Shown: positions 1,526 to 8,427 of the stretch, piece by piece
Numbering within the stretch: position 1 is the stretch's first letter
How the letters are laid out: every line of letters starts with the position of its first letter
DNA from: Oscillospiraceae bacterium
Lineage (GTDB): Bacteria > Bacillota > Clostridia > Oscillospirales > CAG-272
Length of the DNA: 45,087 nt
Reading direction: 5' to 3'
NCBI GenBank assembly: GCA_015064125.1
Contig: SVSV01000003.1
Location: 1 to 45,087 of the forward strand
Translations under genes and position numbers: made by a program
Notes under the pieces: model-generated
The model's input: only the letters and a program-made list of their open reading frames with translations
What the model was told of the DNA's origin: nothing
Database searches by the model: none

Positions 1526-3458
1526 GAAAACCGAAATGCCAAAGCGCCCCGGGGCAAATCCCCGTGTGCTTGGGCGTGTGCTGAGGCTGCTGTTTGGCTA
1601 CTACCCCGTATTGGTGCCCTTGGCGATCGTTTGTATTCTTGTTTCGGCCGTTACGGCCGCCCTGCCTGCAATTTTTATGCAGCAGGTCATCGCCGCCATT
1701 GAATCGGCACAGCAGGTGGGTCTGACGTGGCGCGCCGCTGCTGATGAGATCGTTCCTAAGGTCATTTTGCTTGGCGTATTCTACGTGATCTCCCTTTGTG
1801 CCATTATTCTGCAAACGCAGCTGATGGCGGTCATCACGCAGGGCTTTTTGTATAAGCTGCGTCGTACGATGTTTGATAAGATGCAAGACCTGCCCATTCG
1901 CTATTTTGACACCCACAAGCACGGCGACATTATGAGCCATTACACCAACGATATCGACGCATTGCGCGAGCTGGTGTCGCAGGCATTGCCCGCGCTCCTA
2001 AACTCGGTCGTCATTCTTGTGTCCGTGCTGTTCGTGATGCTTTATTACAGCCTTTGGATGACGCTGGTGCTGCTTGTCGGCGTGGTGGCAATGGTGCTGG
2101 TATCCAAAAAGATCGGCGGCGGCTCGGCAAAATATTTCATGCGCCAGCAGCGCACCGTGGGGCGCGCCGAGGGCTTTGTGCAGGAGATGATGAACGGCCA
2201 GAAGGTGATCAAGGTCTTTAACCATGAAAGGGCCTCTGCCGAGGATTTTGAAAAGATCAACCACGCGCTTTTTGAGGATAGCGCACGCGCTCACGCGTAT
2301 GCCAACACCTTAGGGCCGATCATCGGCAATATCGGTAATATTCTCTACGTGCTTATGGCAGTCGCGGGGGGTGTGTTTTTGCTCCTGAAGCTTCCAAACC
2401 TCGGTCTTTCGATGCTCGCATCGGGCGGTGGCTTTGCTGTGTTCAGCATCAGCATTATCGTGCCGTTCCTCGGTATGGCGAAGCAGTTTACCGCCAACGT
2501 GAACCAGGCCTCTCAGCAGATCAATGCCGTAGTAATGGGTATGGCCGGTGGCTCGCGCCTGTTTGAAATGATGGACGAGGCGCCCGAGGCCGATGACGGG
2601 TACGTGACGCTGGTGAACGCCGTGGTGGATGAAAGCGGCAACGTGTCGGAAAGCACCGCGCGCACGGGCAAGTGGGCGTGGCGTCATCCCCACGCGGCAG
2701 ACGGTACGGTCACTTATACGCTGCTGCAGGGCGACGTGCGCCTTACGGAGGTGGATTTTGCCTATGAGGAGGGCAAGCCCGTTTTGCATGACGTGAGCGT
2801 TTATGCCGAGCCCGGGCAAAAGGTGGCCTTTGTTGGCGCCACGGGTGCGGGAAAAACCACCATTACCAACCTGATCAATCGCTTTTACGATATCGCTGAC
2901 GGTAAGATCCGCTATGACGGCATCAACATCAATAAGATCCGCAAATCCGATCTGCGCCGCTCTCTTGGTATCGTTTTGCAGGAGACCAACCTCTTTACCG
3001 GCACCGTGATGGAAAATATCCGCTACGGTCGCCTTGATGCTACCGACGAGGCGTGCCGTGAGGCAGCAAGGCTGGTGGGCGCTGACGATTTTATTTCACG
3101 CTTGCCGCAGGGGTACGATACCGAGCTTTCGGGCAACGGAGCCAACCTTTCGCAGGGACAGCGTCAGATGATCGCCATTGCGCGTGCCGCAGTGGCTGAC
3201 CCGCCCGTCATGATCCTTGATGAGGCGACCTCCTCGATCGACACCCGTACGGAGGCGATCGTGCAGCGCGGCATGGATAAGCTGATGGAGGGCAGGACCG
3301 TATTTGTGATCGCACACCGCCTGTCAACCGTTATGAATTCCGACGTCATTATGGTGCTTGACCATGGCCGTATCATCGAGCGTGGCAATCACGATAAGCT
3401 GATCGCCGAAAAGGGCGTTTACTATCAGCTTTATACAGGCGCATTTGAGCTTGAATAA
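1515..3458 (+). CDS. ABC exporter permease/ATP-binding subunit (heterodimer subunit 2)
   Basis: TMD plus Walker A GATGAGKT, LSQGQRQ, ILDEATS and IAHRLST. Overlaps the upstream stop; start is 1515 ATG or 1518 TTG after a GGGGTGAGG RBS. Confidence 0.95.
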   Translation: MLSKKTEMPKRPGANPRVLGRVLRLLFGYYPVLVPLAIVCILVSAVTAALPAIFMQQVIAAIESAQQVGLTWRAAADEIVPKVILLGVFYVISLCAIILQTQLMAVITQGFLYKLRRTMFDKMQDLPIRYFDTHKHGDIMSHYTNDIDALRELVSQALPALLNSVVILVSVLFVMLYYSLWMTLVLLVGVVAMVLVSKKIGGGSAKYFMRQQRTVGRAEGFVQEMMNGQKVIKVFNHERASAEDFEKINHALFEDSARAHAYANTLGPIIGNIGNILYVLMAVAGGVFLLLKLPNLGLSMLASGGGFAVFSISIIVPFLGMAKQFTANVNQASQQINAVVMGMAGGSRLFEMMDEAPEADDGYVTLVNAVVDESGNVSESTARTGKWAWRHPHAADGTVTYTLLQGDVRLTEVDFAYEEGKPVLHDVSVYAEPGQKVAFVGATGAGKTTITNLINRFYDIADGKIRYDGININKIRKSDLRRSLGIVLQETNLFTGTVMENIRYGRLDATDEACREAARLVGADDFISRLPQGYDTELSGNGANLSQGQRQMIAIARAAVADPPVMILDEATSSIDTRTEAIVQRGMDKLMEGRTVFVIAHRLSTVMNSDVIMVLDHGRIIERGNHDKLIAEKGVYYQLYTGAFELE

Positions 3459-3462
3459 GATA

Positions 3463-3490
3463 AAAAGGCCGCGGTACGCCGCGGCCTTTT
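3463..3490 (+). terminator. Rho-independent terminator after ABC operon
   Basis: AAAAGGCCGCGG-TACG-CCGCGGCCTTTT perfect hairpin. Confidence 0.85.
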
Positions 3491-3513
3491 GTATGAAAAA
3501 ATCGCACATTCTC

Positions 3514-3541
3514 TTGCATTATGTCAAAATTATGCTATAAT
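3514..3541 (+). promoter_or_regulatory. sigmaA-type promoter for TIR-V4R operon
   Basis: TTGCAT-16 nt-TATAAT with TG extended -10. Confidence 0.7.
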
Positions 3542-3597
3542 AAGATTAATAAGCAGTTATTACACTGTGACTGCCGATGGAAGGAATGGGAAAGACT

Positions 3598-4602
3598 ATG
3601 AATAAGGACGTATTCGTCAGCTATACGACACCCGACCGCCGCGTGGCGGAGGATATTGTTGCTTTTCTTGAAAAGCAGGGCGTGGATTGCTTTATTGCAC
3701 CGCGTGACGTTGACCCCGGGCAGGCCTATGCCGCCAATCTCATGCAGGCCATCAACAATTGCCGTGTGATCATTTTGGTGGCGTCTGACGCAATGAATCG
3801 CTCCAACCACGTGCTCAACGAGATCGAGGCGATCATCAACAAGCAAAAGCCGTTGGTGCCGTTCTTTATCGAGGATTTCCAGATGAACGATGAGTTTTGC
3901 TATTATCTGAGCAGGACCCAGCGCATTGTGGCATATCCCGACCCCGTTTCCTCGTATTATCATAAGCTTTTAAACGCCATTATGCCGATGCTTCCGCAAA
4001 GACAGGCGCCCGCCCCCGCACCTCAGCCCGTGCAGGCGACACCCGTTAATCAAAGCACCACTACGGTGTTTGAATACATCCCCTCGCGCGGTATTATGAT
4101 CAATCCCGAGGATCATCAGCGCAACGTCAGCTTCCGCACGGATACCTTTATCAATATGTTTGGCGGTATCTTTGATAACGTGGTGTCGCTGGCAGGTCTT
4201 GATCGGGCGTGCAGCATCTTCCACGAGTCGGGCTATCATTGTGGGCAGAACTTTGCCCAGCGCCTGAATTCCAGCTGGGAGTTTGGCGAAAACGGTAATG
4301 TCACCATCGAAAGCAAGCTGCAAAAATGGTGTGAGTTTGACTCTCAGGTCGGCTGGGGTAAGTTTGACGTTAACGTTGAGGTGAATGAAGAAACCGGCGA
4401 CTTTAAGGGAGAGCTTACGATCAACGAGTCCTTTATCGTTGACCGCAAGGAGCGCAAGCAGATCTGCGAGTTTGTGCGCGGCTACTGTGAGGGTGTGATC
4501 GAGACCCTGCTTTGCGTGAAGGTGCACCTTGAATGCCTTGAGTGCCCCATGAAAAACCGCTTTAAATCGGTTTGCAGGTTCCGCATTGAATTGGAGGATT
4601 GA
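3598..4602 (+). CDS. TIR domain (TIR_2-like) fused through a Pro/Gln linker to a C-terminal V4R-like ligand-binding domain
   Basis: N-term DVFVSY...DCFIAPRDVDPGQAY...SNHVLNEIE is a TIR signature with the Glu at the catalytic position. C-term GYHCGQNF...GWGKF...ICEFVRGYCEG...ECLEC...VCRF matches the V4R pattern. Alternative start at 3577. Confidence 0.8.
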   Translation: MNKDVFVSYTTPDRRVAEDIVAFLEKQGVDCFIAPRDVDPGQAYAANLMQAINNCRVIILVASDAMNRSNHVLNEIEAIINKQKPLVPFFIEDFQMNDEFCYYLSRTQRIVAYPDPVSSYYHKLLNAIMPMLPQRQAPAPAPQPVQATPVNQSTTTVFEYIPSRGIMINPEDHQRNVSFRTDTFINMFGGIFDNVVSLAGLDRACSIFHESGYHCGQNFAQRLNSSWEFGENGNVTIESKLQKWCEFDSQVGWGKFDVNVEVNEETGDFKGELTINESFIVDRKERKQICEFVRGYCEGVIETLLCVKVHLECLECPMKNRFKSVCRFRIELED

Positions 4603-4607
4603 ACTTC

Positions 4608-5615
4608 GTGAAGGTTTTGTTTGTATTTACCGGGGGCACCATCGGCAGCACCGTGCAGGGGGATTTTATCGGCACCGACCGAAAAAAGCCTTATTTGCTG
4701 CTGGAAAGCTATCGCCGCACCTACGGTATTGATTTTGAATACGACACGGCTTCCCCCTATACCAATTTAAGTGAAAACAACACGGGTAGCACGTTGTGCA
4801 GGCTGATGGATAGTGTATGCGAGTCTGCCAAGGGAGATTACGACGGTATTATCGTCACACACGGCACTGATACCATGCAGTATTCTGCCGCGGCTCTCTC
4901 TTATGCACTTGCCGACGTAAGGATCCCCGTGCTGCTTGTCAGCAGTAATCAGCCCATTGAGCACCCGCTTGCCAACGGTCTTGTTAATCTGCGTGGGGCC
5001 TTACGCTTTATTGCCGAGGTTGGCACTCCAGGGGTGTTTGTCGCCTACCAAAACGAGGGCGAGCCTGTGACGGTGCACCGTGGCACGCGCCTTTGCGAGA
5101 GCCTTGCCTTCACCGATGCGGTCTATAGTATCTATCATAGCTTTTACGGCACCTTTGAGGAGGGAAAGCCCTTTCTTAAAAATCCCGCTTATCGGGAGCT
5201 CGCAAATGAGATGCCTGCCATCGGTGTGCAAGCGCTGGGCGAGGACTGCAAGCAGATCCTGCGTGTGGCGCCTTATCCCGGTAACCCTTATCGTGCGCTG
5301 ACACCCGACGTGCGCTATATCCTGCATACCTCCTATCATTCGGGCACGGTGAATACTGAAGGTGAGCAGGTAAGGGCCTATTTTGCTGCAGCAAAGAAGG
5401 CCGCGATCACAACGTTTTTGACGGGTGTGACACCCGGTGCTGCCTATGATAGCACGCGCCTGTTTGAGGAATTGGGGATCGTGCCGCTTTATAATATCGC
5501 ACCCATTGCCGCGTTTATCAAGCTGTGGCTGTTAACGGTGAAGTATCCCGACACGTCGATCACGTGTGATATGATGCAGCGATCACTTGCCGCCGACGTG
5601 GTGCCACAGGCATAA
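4608..5615 (+). CDS. Asparaginase/glutaminase-fold amidohydrolase (type I/GatD-like, divergent)
   Basis: Motifs TGGTIGS and HGTDTM. GTG start 10 nt after GGAGG, which lies inside the end of the TIR gene; the TTG at 4599 is an alternative start. Confidence 0.85.
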   Translation: MKVLFVFTGGTIGSTVQGDFIGTDRKKPYLLLESYRRTYGIDFEYDTASPYTNLSENNTGSTLCRLMDSVCESAKGDYDGIIVTHGTDTMQYSAAALSYALADVRIPVLLVSSNQPIEHPLANGLVNLRGALRFIAEVGTPGVFVAYQNEGEPVTVHRGTRLCESLAFTDAVYSIYHSFYGTFEEGKPFLKNPAYRELANEMPAIGVQALGEDCKQILRVAPYPGNPYRALTPDVRYILHTSYHSGTVNTEGEQVRAYFAAAKKAAITTFLTGVTPGAAYDSTRLFEELGIVPLYNIAPIAAFIKLWLLTVKYPDTSITCDMMQRSLAADVVPQA

Positions 5616-5677
5616 AAATGCCGACGCTCAGCTGATGCTCTTAAATGGAGCAGTTACGCTAAGCGTCGGCATTTTTT
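5614..5677. terminator. Bidirectional terminator between the asparaginase-like gene and azlD
   Basis: AAAAATGCCGACGCT...AGCGTCGGCATTTTTT inverted repeat between convergent genes. Confidence 0.75.
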
Positions 5678-5681
5678 GCTC

Positions 5682-5990
5682 TTAAAAGGGGATGAGCTCC
5701 ACGAGAAATACCGTCAGGCACGCAAAGGCGGCTACGGTGGGGAGCTTGCAGCCGCGTAGCCCCAGCACCGTGGCAACGGCAAGGGCAGCAAGGCCTGACC
5801 ACATGACAGCTGTGGCACTGAGAATGGCGGGGAAGGTCATTACCGTTAAGGTAACGTAGGGCACGTAGTGCAAAAACGAGCGTACGGTCTTGTTTTTGAT
5901 CTCGCGGCGGATCAGGACCAGGGGCAGTACACGAATGAGATACGTGACTGCGGCCATGACGAGGATCGCCAGTAAAATATTAGTTACCAT
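5682..5990 (-). CDS. azlD: AzlD-family branched-chain amino acid exporter small subunit
   Basis: VTYLIRVLP and FLHYVPY motifs; hydrophobic 102 aa; overlaps azlC. Confidence 0.88.
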   Translation of the reverse strand: MVTNILLAILVMAAVTYLIRVLPLVLIRREIKNKTVRSFLHYVPYVTLTVMTFPAILSATAVMWSGLAALAVATVLGLRGCKLPTVAAFACLTVFLVELIPF

Positions 5991-6855: not shown

Positions 6856-8427
6856 TTATGGGGTGATAAAGTTACTGTGGGGAAGGATCAGCTTGCCATT
6901 GTGGCAGATGTATTCCGTGACCCTTGCCGTGATACTGCCGTTTTGCAGGGTGATGGTGCCAAGCAGCTCCTCGGTGATCGGGGTGCCGTCATTGAGGGTG
7001 ATCACCAACGCCGCCCCGCCCCAGTATTCAATGTCGGCAATGGCTTTCCATATTTCATCAGTTTCGTCATTCCAGGCGGAATTTTTGAATTGCACGGTGT
7101 ACTCGCTGAAATATGCCTTATACTCATCAGGCAGCTTCTTCTTGCTTGGTGTGCCCGAGTCAAACAGGAGCAGGAGCGGTACTGTAGCAAGGTCGTTCAG
7201 GCAGGCCTGCTCATTAGCCGTATAGGGTGAGAACCGATCGCCTGCGGCGTAAGGGTGCGTGTCGGTTTGTGTGTCACTGAGATCGTTCTTGGCGTTGTCA
7301 GCCATCTGCTGCACGGAAAGCAAGGGGCGCTCGCCCTCGTGCATCGCGTAAACATAGATGTAGCTTTGATCGGGATAGGTGATCTTCAGGTAGCCCACTG
7401 CGGAGTGCTTCTGTAAGCGCGCGTACGGCTTGATATTGTTTAGTATTCCTTTAAAATAGAGCTTGCCCTCCTCCTGCCGACACCAGTCCTGGGCGGGGAT
7501 ATCTGTGGGCGTGCAGCCGGCTGCGATCAGCGCTGCGTGCGTGAGGATCCCGTCAGTCTGCTCAAGCTCCTCTGCCGTGGCAAACAGGGTGCCGCGATCA
7601 AGGGTAAGGATCTGCGGGAACAGTGCCTGCCATTTATCGGCGGGAATGGAGGTGATGACGTGAATGGCGCCCGTTTCAGGGTCCAGCATAAAATTCGTGT
7701 CGGTGATAAGGGAAAGCGTGCTTTGCATGGGGGTAAAGCTGAGCAGAGAAGCATTTGGCGCCCGATCGTTTTCATAGGCGGCGTAAGCATAACGCGTCGT
7801 GCCGTCTGAGTAGGTGATCTTAGCATAGCCCACGGCAGTGTATTTGGTGGTAAGGTGCTGCACCTCCGTTAAGGCAAGAGCCCCGCTGAAGGTATGCGCC
7901 TCGCTTTCAAAGGCGGCGGCAACGTCGGCGGCAGTCTTTTCGTTTGCAGCGAGCGCATCGTGTGTGAGCACGCCGTCAAGGACTGCAATGTCGGCAACGG
8001 GTAAGATCAACGTACCGCATGCGGCGGTGCTGTCAAGCGCTTGCAGGCTTTCCCACTCTGTTTGATGGAACGAGGTGGTGAAAACAAGACTTGTGGTGTC
8101 CGTGTCGACTGCTGCATCGGTCCTTGTGGTCAAATGCAGGTAGACCGGCGCAAAGGTCAGGTCCTCCTCAGCCTTGTATTGATACGTAGCGCCGATCGGC
8201 AAAAAAACGGTACCGTTTTCCGTGGTGGCTTGCCAGCCTACACAAAAGGCTGCATGCATGCCTGCGGGGGCGGGTAACGTTAAGGAGCCTGCTTCTTTGG
8301 TGCTTTGACGAAGGGTCAATATACCGCTTTCGGCAAAGGTGATGCAGGGCCCGTCCTCGATAAAGCTGCATGCGACCGCGCTCAGGCAAAGCAACAGCAC
8401 AAGCAAAAAAAGAGCAACACTTTTCAT
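6856..8427 (-). CDS. Hypothetical lipoprotein with an internally duplicated domain of about 130 aa
   Basis: Signal peptide with lipobox AVAC. Two similar segments end in YTAVGYAKITYSDG and HSAVGYLKITYPDQ. Promoter TTGACT-16-TATAAT at 8474-8501; GC hairpin near 6826-6847 downstream. Confidence 0.75.
   Translation of the reverse strand: MKSVALFLLVLLLCLSAVACSFIEDGPCITFAESGILTLRQSTKEAGSLTLPAPAGMHAAFCVGWQATTENGTVFLPIGATYQYKAEEDLTFAPVYLHLTTRTDAAVDTDTTSLVFTTSFHQTEWESLQALDSTAACGTLILPVADIAVLDGVLTHDALAANEKTAADVAAAFESEAHTFSGALALTEVQHLTTKYTAVGYAKITYSDGTTRYAYAAYENDRAPNASLLSFTPMQSTLSLITDTNFMLDPETGAIHVITSIPADKWQALFPQILTLDRGTLFATAEELEQTDGILTHAALIAAGCTPTDIPAQDWCRQEEGKLYFKGILNNIKPYARLQKHSAVGYLKITYPDQSYIYVYAMHEGERPLLSVQQMADNAKNDLSDTQTDTHPYAAGDRFSPYTANEQACLNDLATVPLLLLFDSGTPSKKKLPDEYKAYFSEYTVQFKNSAWNDETDEIWKAIADIEYWGGAALVITLNDGTPITEELLGTITLQNGSITARVTEYICHNGKLILPHSNFITP

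What the first reader, a model, noticed from the sequence alone, without database searches (positions are those of the whole stretch)
3514..5677. Candidate undescribed two-gene system: TIR-V4R sensor/enzyme coupled to an asparaginase-fold protein
Seen: the unit has its own promoter (3514-3541) and terminators on both sides (3463-3490, 5614-5677). It holds just two genes, and the RBS of gene 2 sits inside the last codons of gene 1. Established: bacterial TIR domains cleave NAD+ or make ADPR-derived signals in Thoeris, CBASS and Pycsar immunity, often with an adjacent effector; type II Thoeris makes an amino acid-ADPR conjugate (His-ADPR). Inference: this may be a TIR signalling or defence module in which the amidohydrolase-fold protein is the effector (Asn/Gln depletion), the signal receptor or the signal eraser. 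Alternatively it is a metabolite-sensing circuit, next to the azlCD amino-acid exporter. I know of no described system with this pairing. No mobile-element or defence-island context is visible, which tempers the defence reading.
Basis: partly seen in the sequence, partly recalled or inferred. Interest (0 to 1): 0.85.

Follow-up and report, generated by a model that had tools for sequence, protein, structure and literature searches.

The report
TIR–V4R sensor with asparaginase-like partner
A gut Clostridia genome carries a two-gene operon in which an NAD-cleaving TIR domain fused to a small-molecule sensor sits in front of a divergent asparaginase-like enzyme; this pairing was predicted to be an immune system in a 2026 preprint but has never been tested.

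Summary
Window 3577-4602 encodes a TIR domain fused to a PoxR/MopR/Bet3-like (V4R) sensor module. Window 4608-5615 encodes a two-domain asparaginase-fold protein. Both sit in one promoter-to-terminator unit.

The pairing is strongly conserved: 68 of 72 genome loci with this sensor module have an adjacent asparaginase-family gene, whether the N-terminal domain is TIR, HEPN or ParA.

It is not undescribed. Li, Burroughs and Aravind (bioRxiv, 22 Oct 2026) define "V4R-asparaginase-based conflict systems" in silico, with exactly this architecture. No experiment exists.

- The dependence is one-sided. The asparaginase-like gene occurs alone in 16 of 24 sister genomes.
- In three sister genomes it lies at the same chromosomal site, and in two of them behind the same promoter. 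Gene 1 is therefore an insertion/deletion inside a resident transcription unit.
- The enzyme keeps the Thr nucleophile and the Thr-Asp pair but lacks the catalytic Lys.
- Flanking genes are housekeeping, not a defence island.

Best reading: a ligand-gated TIR NADase that reads a metabolite handled by the enzyme. A new member of a recently predicted kind.

The parts
3463..3490 (.). Palindromic G+C-rich hairpin flanked by an A-run and a T-run. It is the terminator of the upstream ABC-exporter gene (which ends at 3458) and insulates the unit.
   Evidence: Terminator scan. RNA fold dG -22.4 kcal/mol, z -4.5, 0 of 200 shuffles as good.
3514..3541 (+). Promoter: -35 TTGCAT (3514-3519), 16-nt spacer, extended -10 TGcTATAAT (3533-3541).
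   Evidence: Read from the sequence. Not listed by the consensus scan because the -35 matches 3 of 6. The same promoter is conserved in L006, and in G004/G019 it directly precedes a solo asparaginase-like gene.
3577..4602 (+). Gene 1: TIR-V4R protein (341-aa ORF; the likely start is ATG 3598, giving 334 aa).
   Evidence: ORF list. Pfam. 203 homologues with E<=1e-3, the 120 listed mostly about 330 aa. Alignment A1. Structure model.
3604..3996 (+). TIR domain (aa ~10-140), with invariant Glu82 (codon 3820-3822) in the motif S-x-H-V-L-N-E after strand C.
   Evidence: Pfam TIR_2 E 2.8e-18. E82 is invariant in 35 of 35 aligned homologues. Foldseek matches AbTir and SARM1 TIR. That this position equals the catalytic Glu of NADase TIRs is recalled from the literature and was not superposed here.
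4069..4599 (+). Sensor module (aa ~165-341). It has an N-P-x-D-x-x-R-N-V-S-F-R-x-D-T lead-in and a V4R/Bet3-like fold. KWCxFDSxVGxG, C297, C323 and C333 are invariant; C320 is Cys or His.
   Evidence: Foldseek: PoxR/MopR/DmpR sensory domains E ~2e-8, and Bet3. Alignment A6 across the TIR, HEPN, ParA and other classes. The profile finds 446 cluster representatives at E<=1e-10, with the module always C-terminal among the 150 listed.
4593..4597 (+). GGAGG ribosome-binding site of gene 2, inside the last codons of gene 1 (stop TGA at 4600-4602).
   Evidence: Sequence. It lies 10 nt upstream of GTG 4608.
4608..5615 (+). Gene 2: divergent class-1 (type I-like) asparaginase-fold protein, 335 aa. TGGT(11)IG, S55-E56, HGT(87)D(88)T and Y-H244-S-G-T247 are conserved. 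The canonical catalytic Lys is replaced (Glu164 here).
   Evidence: Pfam. NCBIfam hits all far below the cut-offs. Alignments to solved asparaginases and GatD. Family alignments. Model and Foldseek.
5614..5677 (.). Long hairpin with a T-run downstream and an A-run upstream. It is a bidirectional terminator shared with the convergent azlD gene.
   Evidence: RNA fold dG -37.2 kcal/mol, z -7.5, 0 of 200 shuffles as good.

Best explanation
The unit is a member of the V4R-asparaginase class of predicted conflict systems. Gene 1 is a ligand-gated effector. Its C-terminal V4R-type module binds a small molecule and controls the N-terminal TIR domain, an NAD+-cleaving enzyme with its catalytic-position Glu intact. 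When triggered, the TIR domain would deplete NAD+ and arrest or kill the cell, for example during phage infection.

The ligand is a substrate or product of the co-transcribed asparaginase-like amidohydrolase (gene 2). That enzyme keeps the residues which, in asparaginases, hold an alpha-amino acid and form the acyl-enzyme. The ligand is therefore probably an amide-bearing amino-acid-like metabolite.

Shown here: the domain folds, the conserved adjacency, the single operon, interchangeable effector domains, and one-sided dependence (the effector needs the enzyme, not the reverse).

Inferred: NADase activity, ligand gating, the identity of the ligand, and the immune role.

Direction is open. Given functional coupling, I put about 45% on 'the enzyme makes the activator' (the preprint's model). 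I put about 35% on 'the enzyme removes the activator, so the effector fires when the enzyme is blocked or overwhelmed'. The rest goes to direct protein-protein control.
For: 1. Folds: TIR plus a PoxR/MopR/Bet3-like sensor, and a full asparaginase fold.
2. E82 is invariant in 35 of 35 homologues.
3. Adjacency: 68 of 72 genome loci with this sensor module have an adjacent asparaginase-family gene. That is 55 TIR loci with it downstream and 1 with it upstream, 7 of 7 HEPN-type, 3 of 3 ParA-type and 2 of 2 of another type.
4. Only these two gene families are shared by more than 10 of the 69 loci clustered.
5. Sensor-module identity and enzyme identity co-vary: r 0.88 over 61 pairs, 0 of 999 permutations as high.
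6. The N-terminal position is swapped among classical effectors. Of 107 representative proteins with the module, 43 hit ParA-like CbiA, 17 hit TIR_2 and 2 hit Metallophos. HEPN RNxLxH motifs occur in 6 of the 7 loci assigned to the HEPN class (L067 was not examined).
7. One promoter, RBS overlap and flanking terminators.
8. Patchy distribution: full-length gene 1 is found in 1 of 301 genomes of the order sample and 1 of 25 of the genus sample.
9. The enzyme keeps TGGTIG, S-E and HGTDT in all 65 aligned sequences.
10. An independent in-silico description of the same architecture, with a ligand model, exists (preprint passages).
Against: - No defence-island or mobile-element context. The 126 immediate neighbours are mostly housekeeping (MnmA 7, response regulators 5, ABC 5), with few strong PADLOC hits (SspH, HerA, AriA and RT-protease, 1 each). 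The window itself is housekeeping.
- No relative was found in viral contigs.
- Gene 2 is not dedicated to the system. It stands alone in 16 of 24 same-genus genomes and in 18 of 300 other genomes of the order. Solo and linked forms interleave on the tree, with at least 9 forced changes; monophyly of the linked forms is rejected, p-AU 1.6e-49, though that group was named after the quick tree was seen. A resident metabolic enzyme therefore fits as well as an immune signal synthase.
- The canonical catalytic Lys is missing in the TIR- and HEPN-linked and solo enzymes, so catalysis may be altered or lost.
- There are no activity, expression or phage data of any kind.
Confidence: 0.6

Rival explanations
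1. Physiological rather than immune circuit. The asparaginase-like protein is a resident metabolic enzyme. The V4R-TIR protein is a metabolite-responsive regulator of NAD+ turnover, or a producer of an ADPR-derived signal. It tunes growth or dormancy to nitrogen or amino-acid status, with no role against phages.
For: The solo enzyme is widespread and lies at the same locus, and in G004/G019 behind the same promoter, in sister species. Neighbours are housekeeping. No viral or mobile context was found. V4R domains are classical metabolite sensors (PoxR/MopR/DmpR matches).
Against: The same sensor-plus-enzyme pair carries HEPN, ParA or Metallophos instead of TIR. This pattern of interchangeable toxic domains is typical of conflict systems, not of regulators. 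Gene 1 is extremely patchy (1 of 301) and is repeatedly gained or lost, which is unlike a core regulatory circuit.
Confidence: 0.2
2. Toxin-antitoxin-like pair that works by protein contact. The asparaginase-fold protein binds the sensor module and holds the TIR domain off, and its release or degradation triggers the toxin. The enzyme fold is a scaffold, and catalysis is secondary or lost.
For: Effector-first operon with a coupled RBS. One-sided dependence of the effector on the partner. Loss of the canonical catalytic Lys. Co-variation of the two proteins.
Against: The nucleophile Thr, the Thr-Asp pair and the Ser-Glu substrate-binding pair are invariant in 65 of 65 sequences, and new invariant His/Thr/Tyr residues appear. 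This argues for a working active site. ParA-linked partners are fully canonical asparaginases. Solo enzymes keep the same motifs.
Confidence: 0.1
3. TIR is the signal generator, as in Thoeris. The asparaginase-fold protein is the effector (Asn/Gln depletion), the receptor or the eraser of an amino-acid-ADPR signal.
For: Weak similarity of the TIR domain to ThsB and Thoeris type III TIR models. Amino-acid-ADPR signals exist in type II Thoeris (preprint 10.1101/2024.01.03.573942, seen as a search listing and abstract only).
Against: TIR is replaced by HEPN or ParA in otherwise identical operons, and those domains cannot make ADPR signals. The enzyme functions without any TIR partner in most genomes that have it. 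All Thoeris-model scores are far below the cut-offs (25 bits against 220).
Confidence: 0.07
4. No functional link. Gene 1 merely inserted in front of an unrelated resident gene.
For: Gene 1 is an indel between a conserved promoter and the enzyme gene.
Against: The same adjacency recurs in 68 of 72 loci, across several families and phyla, with different flanks and different N-terminal domains.
Confidence: 0.03

Closest known systems
V4R-asparaginase-based conflict systems (Li, Burroughs & Aravind, bioRxiv 10.64898/2026.10.19.760177, 22 Oct 2026; in silico only)
   Same: Same architecture: an N-terminal effector (ParA, TIR, HEPN or 2TM) fused to a V4R domain, plus an adjacent asparaginase-family gene. 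The same idea that a small ligand links the enzyme to the sensor (passages read).
   Different: The passages I could read do not mention four things: that the enzyme is commonly solo and resident; that the TIR/HEPN-linked enzymes lack the catalytic Lys; that flanks are housekeeping; or the alternative partners (PALP, Zn-ADH, GDSL, PNP_UDP_1).
CBASS/Pycsar operons with ligand-gated TIR effectors (TIR-SAVED, TIR-STING, Cap12/PCTIR)
   Same: Works alike in outline: a small operon with one enzyme gene and one protein that fuses a ligand sensor to a TIR NADase. Weak hits to the SAVED_TIR and CAP12-PCTIR TIR models.
   Different: The enzyme is an amidohydrolase-fold protein, not a nucleotidyl cyclase. 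The sensor is V4R/Bet3-like, not SAVED or STING. The ligand is probably not a nucleotide. The enzyme also exists without the effector.
Thoeris (ThsB TIR plus ThsA-type effector)
   Same: A TIR domain related to ThsB-type TIRs at low score.
   Different: No ThsA-like (SIR2/SLOG, Macro, TM or caspase) gene is present. All scores are far below the family cut-offs. Here TIR occupies the effector position, not the sensor position.
PoxR/MopR/DmpR phenol-sensing domain (XylR_N plus V4R) and Bet3/TRAPP
   Same: Same fold over about 190 residues (Foldseek E ~2e-8). The conserved Cys/His set is placed like a structural metal site; that those sensors hold a zinc site is recalled from the literature.
   Different: Fused to TIR rather than to an AAA+ sigma-54 activator. 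The strongly conserved polar lead-in motif and the invariant KWC have no described counterpart. The ligand is unknown.
Class 1 type I L-asparaginases and GatD
   Same: Two-domain fold (TM 0.82 to 5ot0). The Thr nucleophile, Thr-Asp and Ser-Glu are conserved.
   Different: The catalytic Lys is replaced. The C-domain GxGN/GAGG loop is replaced by an invariant YHSGT. Scores are far below the NCBIfam cut-offs (90 against 260 bits for asnASE_I, 93 against 310 for GatD).

Membership tests
V4R-asparaginase-based conflict system (2026 preprint) | A protein with a C-terminal V4R domain and an N-terminal effector domain (ParA, TIR, HEPN or 2TM) | tested here: met
   Pfam TIR_2 plus weak V4R. Foldseek matches to PoxR/MopR/Bet3 and to TIR structures.
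V4R-asparaginase-based conflict system (2026 preprint) | An adjacent gene for an asparaginase-family enzyme | tested here: met
   Gene 2 lies 5 nt downstream on the same strand. The adjacency is conserved in 68 of 72 loci.
V4R-asparaginase-based conflict system (2026 preprint) | An immune (anti-selfish-element) function | not testable with these tools
   Only contextual evidence is available. Effector swapping supports it. Housekeeping neighbours and solo enzymes do not.
TIR NADase | TIR fold | tested here: met
   Pfam TIR_2 E 2.8e-18, above the cut-off. Foldseek AbTir 7uxu, TM on target 0.79.
TIR NADase | Catalytic Glu at the start of helix C | tested here: inconclusive
   E82 is invariant in 35 of 35 homologues and sits in an S-x-H-V-L-N-E motif after strand C. 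Its equivalence to the catalytic Glu is by recalled motif position; no residue-level superposition was available.
Thoeris | ThsB-type TIR protein together with a ThsA-type effector gene | tested here: not met
   Only sub-threshold TIR hits (PADLOC E 9e-6; NCBIfam ThcB4 25 bits against a cut-off of 220). No ThsA-like gene lies in the unit.
Class 1 L-asparaginase / GatD | Two-domain asparaginase fold | tested here: met
   Foldseek 5ot0 E 7e-19, TM 0.82.
Class 1 L-asparaginase / GatD | Nucleophilic Thr (TGGTI) and the Thr-Asp of HGTDT | tested here: met
   Invariant in 65 of 65 aligned sequences.
Class 1 L-asparaginase / GatD | Catalytic Lys of the Thr-Lys-Asp triad | tested here: not met
   Aligned to Glu in the window, and to variable residues in the TIR- and HEPN-linked partners, in three alignments. 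The Lys is present in the ParA-linked partners.
Class 1 L-asparaginase / GatD | Curated family score (NCBIfam asnASE_I, GatD) | tested here: not met
   90 bits against a cut-off of 260.5, and 93 against 310.
V4R / XylR_N aromatic-sensor domain | Pfam V4R above the gathering score | tested here: not met
   17 bits against 31. Relatives score 18-53 bits.
V4R / XylR_N aromatic-sensor domain | The fold of the PoxR/MopR sensory domain | tested here: met
   Foldseek E 2.4e-8, probability 1.00, 191 aligned columns of 195.

The most novel reading that the evidence does not exclude
The asparaginase-like protein is not an infection-triggered messenger synthase. It is a resident metabolic enzyme that acts as a chemical antidote: it continuously removes an amide metabolite that would otherwise switch on the V4R-gated TIR, HEPN or ParA effector. 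The module would then be a 'metabolic guard'. It fires when a phage or a stress blocks or overwhelms the enzyme. The effector gene can be lost harmlessly, leaving the solo enzymes seen in sister species, but it cannot survive without the enzyme.
Probability: 0.25. Interest if true: 0.8.

Novelty: new member of a known kind. Interest (0 to 1): 0.5.

Why it matters
If the model is right, this would be a TIR (or HEPN, or ParA) effector gated by a non-nucleotide, amino-acid-type metabolite through a V4R sensor. The messenger would be made or cleared by an amidohydrolase. No experimentally characterised defence system is known to use this chemistry.

The window offers a compact, clean test case of 2.1 kb with two genes. 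It also comes with a natural control: sister genomes that keep the enzyme and promoter but lack the effector. In addition, it flags a widespread Clostridia family of asparaginase-fold enzymes with an altered active site and an unknown substrate.

Tried and rejected
- Complex prediction of the enzyme with the sensor module returned 'no answer' (score 0.00). It is not used as evidence either way.
- Expression: the look-up of sequencing runs listed no RNA holder. The eight holders are DNA-type runs labelled as animal gut or faeces metagenomes.
- Read laying on four runs gave only short contigs. No contig joined across gene 1, so it says nothing about within-population presence or absence. One 2291-nt contig of a roughly 10% divergent relative spans both genes.
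- The viral-contig scan with the gene 1 alignment found no relative.
- The metagenome scan with the enzyme alignment mostly returned canonical asparaginases. Only 2 of 80 loci had a sensor module.
- The defence-island idea was checked on 126 immediate neighbours and on the window itself, and was not borne out. One 1297-aa neighbour (L039) was dropped to fit the size limit. Positions -2 and +3 were listed but not scanned.
- In the neighbour clustering, three loci (L010, L011, L062) dropped out of the greedy gene call.
- The azlCD link was rejected as local synteny.
- Thoeris membership was rejected.
- A residue-level check of the TIR catalytic Glu against a solved NADase could not be made. The phmmer alignments shown stop before it.
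- The preprint's reference list was not found in the held text. Its figures are not held, and supplements are closed. They may list this very family or the solo enzymes.
- The AU test needed three runs to finish. Its group was named after the quick tree had been seen.
Full report
**What is there.**
Window 3400-5700 holds one compact unit between two strong hairpins: 3463-3490 (dG -22.4, z -4.5) and 5614-5677 (dG -37.2, z -7.5).

A promoter sits 36 nt before the first ORF. It has -35 TTGCAT (3514-3519) and a perfect extended -10, TGcTATAAT (3533-3541). The consensus scan missed it because the -35 matches only 3 of 6.

Gene 1 is the ORF 3577-4602 (341 aa). Most homologues start at the position of ATG 3598. 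Gene 2 is listed as 4599-5615 but almost certainly starts at GTG 4608 (335 aa). The reasons are that GGAGG (4593-4597) lies 10 nt upstream, inside the last codons of gene 1; relatives begin MK(I/V)LF; and the database cluster P0121 is 335 aa.

The upstream genes are two ABC exporter halves. The downstream genes, convergent, are azlD and azlC. The rest of the 45-kb window is housekeeping: NrdD, CysS, FtsK, RF3, SpoVT and others.

**Gene 1.**
- Pfam gives TIR_2 (aa 12-100, E 2.8e-18) and a sub-threshold V4R hit (aa 280-338, 17 bits against 31).
- The AlphaFold model (35-sequence alignment, pLDDT 83) shows a TIR fold (aa ~10-140), a disordered Pro/Ala/Gln linker (144-164) and a second domain (165-341).
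- In Foldseek, the second domain matches the whole phenol-sensing domain of PoxR, MopR and DmpR (E ~2e-8, about 190 columns) and Bet3/TRAPP. The first domain matches AbTir and SARM1 TIR.
- In 35 homologues, Glu82 is invariant in S-x-H-V-L-N-E just after strand C. By recall, that is where NADase TIRs carry their catalytic Glu.
- The sensor module has a very conserved polar lead-in (N-P-E-D-x-Q-R-N-V-S-F-R-x-D-T), an invariant KWCxFDSxVGWG, and Cys297, Cys320, Cys323 and Cys333.
- Across all classes, C297, C323 and C333 stay invariant, and C320 becomes His in the ParA and 'other' classes. This looks like a structural metal site. The metal itself is inferred.

**Gene 2.**
- Pfam finds only the asparaginase N-terminal domain (E 1.9e-28). 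NCBIfam hits to GatD and type I asparaginase are far below the cut-offs.
- The model (pLDDT 93.5) is a full two-domain asparaginase (5ot0, TM 0.82).
- In 65 aligned partners, TGGTIG (the nucleophile Thr), Ser-Glu (the substrate alpha-amino/carboxylate contacts in asparaginases, recalled) and HGTDT are invariant.
- The Lys of the Thr-Lys-Asp triad is not conserved. It aligns to Glu in the window and to E, S, G or Q elsewhere, in three independent alignments to T. kodakarensis and T. sibiricus asparaginases and to GatD.
- The C-domain loop that reads GAGN or GAGG in canonical enzymes is an invariant Y-H-S-G-T, and a Tyr (Y280) is also invariant.
- The partners of ParA-type proteins keep the Lys and GxGN, and score as canonical asparaginases (E 1e-48 to 1e-57).

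**Is the pairing real?**
A pattern scan of one genome per species (185,579 species) gave 72 loci that encode the sensor module.
- 60 are full-length TIR-V4R. Of these, 55 have the asparaginase-like gene directly downstream on the same strand (gaps of -50 to +85 nt) and one (L013) has it directly upstream.
- Four TIR-V4R loci have none in the locus. They sit next to other enzymes instead: a PLP-dependent enzyme 15 nt downstream (L017), a zinc alcohol-dehydrogenase-type gene (L060, L061) and a GDSL hydrolase upstream (L063).
- Seven loci match through the sensor module only and carry a different N-terminal region of about 165 aa. In the six examined it bears an R-N-x-L-x-H (HEPN) motif; L067, cut by its contig end, was not examined. 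All seven have the asparaginase-like gene downstream.
- Three carry ParA/MinD-type NTPases, fused (L074, L077) or as a separate gene (L073), with a canonical asparaginase downstream.
- Two (L075, L076) have an unassigned helical N-domain, a canonical asparaginase upstream and a PNP_UDP_1 phosphorylase downstream.
- The total is 68 of 72.

Clustering all ORFs of 69 loci found only these two families in more than 10 loci. The next cluster is in 10. The pair therefore travels without fixed neighbours. Sensor-module identity and enzyme identity correlate across 61 pairs (r 0.88; 0 of 999 permutations as high). Shared ancestry contributes to this figure.

A profile of the module finds 763, 446 and 114 cluster representatives at E <= 1e-3, 1e-10 and 1e-30, with the module always C-terminal in the 150 listed. 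I scanned 107 of those 150: the best-scoring ones of at least 300 aa that fitted the size limit. Of these, 43 hit CbiA/ParA, 17 hit TIR_2, 2 hit CAP12-type TIR and 2 hit Metallophos. Many hit nothing.

**Already described.**
A full-text search found one paper with V4R, TIR and asparaginase together: Li, Burroughs and Aravind, bioRxiv 10.64898/2026.10.19.760177, 22 Oct 2026. I read its outline and the passages around these terms.

[quoted passage not shown] ParA in front of this V4R can be replaced by TIR, HEPN or a 2TM domain. The systems are coupled to an asparaginase-family gene. [quoted passage not shown]

That is this architecture. It is a one-paragraph in-silico proposal. I found no experimental paper, and PADLOC v2 (2023) has no model for it.

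- With the gene 1 protein as query, none of 24 other genomes of the genus has the sensor module. Two have TIR-only hits.
- In 300 other genomes of the order, the gene 1 profile matched only through its TIR part.
- With the enzyme profile, 16 of those 24 same-genus genomes have a close relative (E to 1e-143). So do 18 of 300 other genomes of the order (E <= 1e-40).
- In G004, G019 and G021 the enzyme gene lies at the same site as in the window (ABC exporter - enzyme - azlD - azlC), with no gene 1.
- The DNA alignment shows that G004 and G019 keep the window's promoter (TTGTAT, spacer, TGCTATAAT) directly in front of the enzyme's RBS and ATG. Gene 1 is thus an insertion/deletion between a conserved promoter and a resident gene.
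- On a careful ML tree of 85 enzymes, the window's enzyme groups as follows: with L006 (100/99); then with the solo of G021 (99/94); then inside a 9-row clade of six same-genus solos and three linked genes (100/99).
- Starred branches force at least 9 switches between linked and solo.
- Holding the 54 TIR-linked enzymes together costs 398 log-likelihood units (p-AU 1.6e-49). That group was named after the quick tree had been seen.
- Solo enzymes keep TGGTIG and, in nearly all of the 19 solo rows checked, HGTDT and YHSGT. They sit next to TrkH, a Trp/Tyr-tRNA synthetase, Ogt, Mfd, DUF1015 and others.

**Context.**
- Of 126 immediate neighbours (positions -1 and +2 of the loci), the commonest Pfam families are MnmA (7), response regulators (5), ABC ATPases (5) and Spo0A (3).
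- PADLOC at E <= 1e-10 gives only scattered hits: SspH, HerA, AriA and RT-protease once each, TIR-type models on one or two proteins, and generic mad hits.
- No relative was found in the viral contig collection.
The immune reading rests on domain logic, not on neighbourhood.

**How it most likely works.**
The interchangeable N-terminal domains (TIR NADase, HEPN RNase, ParA, phosphoesterase) mark that position as the output. The invariant C-terminal module is the input. The obligate enzyme neighbour points to a ligand from that enzyme's reaction. I therefore read gene 1 as a ligand-gated TIR NADase and gene 2 as the enzyme that sets the ligand level.

The retained Ser-Glu and Thr-Asp suggest a substrate with an amino-acid head group. 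The lost Lys and the new His/Thr/Tyr suggest a changed second half-reaction or a changed specificity. These last points are inference.

The preprint's direction (the enzyme makes the activator) is possible. However, the enzyme is constitutive, resident and functional without any effector. That fits at least as well with the enzyme removing an activator, so that the effector fires when the enzyme is blocked or swamped. This would also explain why the effector gene can be lost, leaving solos, yet is almost never found without an enzyme neighbour. The data here cannot decide between the two directions.

**Verdict.**
This is a new member of a recently predicted, experimentally untouched kind. Interest is moderate: the chemistry would be new for a TIR system, and the locus offers natural with-and-without controls, but a specialist who knows the preprint would not be surprised by the architecture.

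Noticed in passing
L017:6001-8331; L060:6001-8149; L061:2905-5196; L063:5311-7005: Four TIR-V4R loci lack an asparaginase-family gene but sit beside another enzyme: a PLP-dependent enzyme 15 nt downstream (L017), a zinc alcohol-dehydrogenase-type gene about 170 nt downstream (L060, L061), and a GDSL hydrolase about 50 nt upstream (L063). These may be alternative enzyme partners.
   Followed up: partly
L075:3879-7782; L076:1095-5040: A three-gene variant in MAGs whose record titles read Candidatus Kapaibacterium and Bacteroidota. A canonical asparaginase with a C-terminal extension of about 150 aa comes first, then an unassigned helical domain fused to the sensor module, then a PNP_UDP_1 phosphorylase.
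   Followed up: partly
proteins, scanned: Two of the 107 representative proteins with the sensor module carry a calcineurin-like phosphoesterase (Metallophos) domain. This N-terminal partner is not named in the preprint passages I read.
   Followed up: no
L006:5567-6000, compared with window 3458-3505: The closest relative (gene 1 94% identical, same synteny) has about 356 extra bases between the ABC gene and the promoter. The insert is A/T-rich with two hairpin-like palindromes. A contig with '356 letters between' also appears in three metagenome runs.
   Followed up: no
L073:2757-5460: A split form of the ParA type: a ParA-like NTPase gene, a separate 182-aa sensor-module-only gene and a canonical asparaginase, in that order.
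   Followed up: partly
window 6856-8427 (-): A 523-aa predicted lipoprotein (signal peptide with Cys), made of two similar halves, has no Pfam hit.
   Followed up: no
G047, G085, G229, G232, G303 and others: TIR domains close to that of gene 1 (profile E 1e-22 to 1e-40) occur in the order in proteins of 283-937 aa without the sensor module. This TIR type is therefore shuffled among several architectures.
   Followed up: no
L161:415-1434; L163:2444-3583: In two same-genus genomes the solo asparaginase-like gene follows trkH and is followed by a 338-379-aa protein with no Pfam hit.
   Followed up: no
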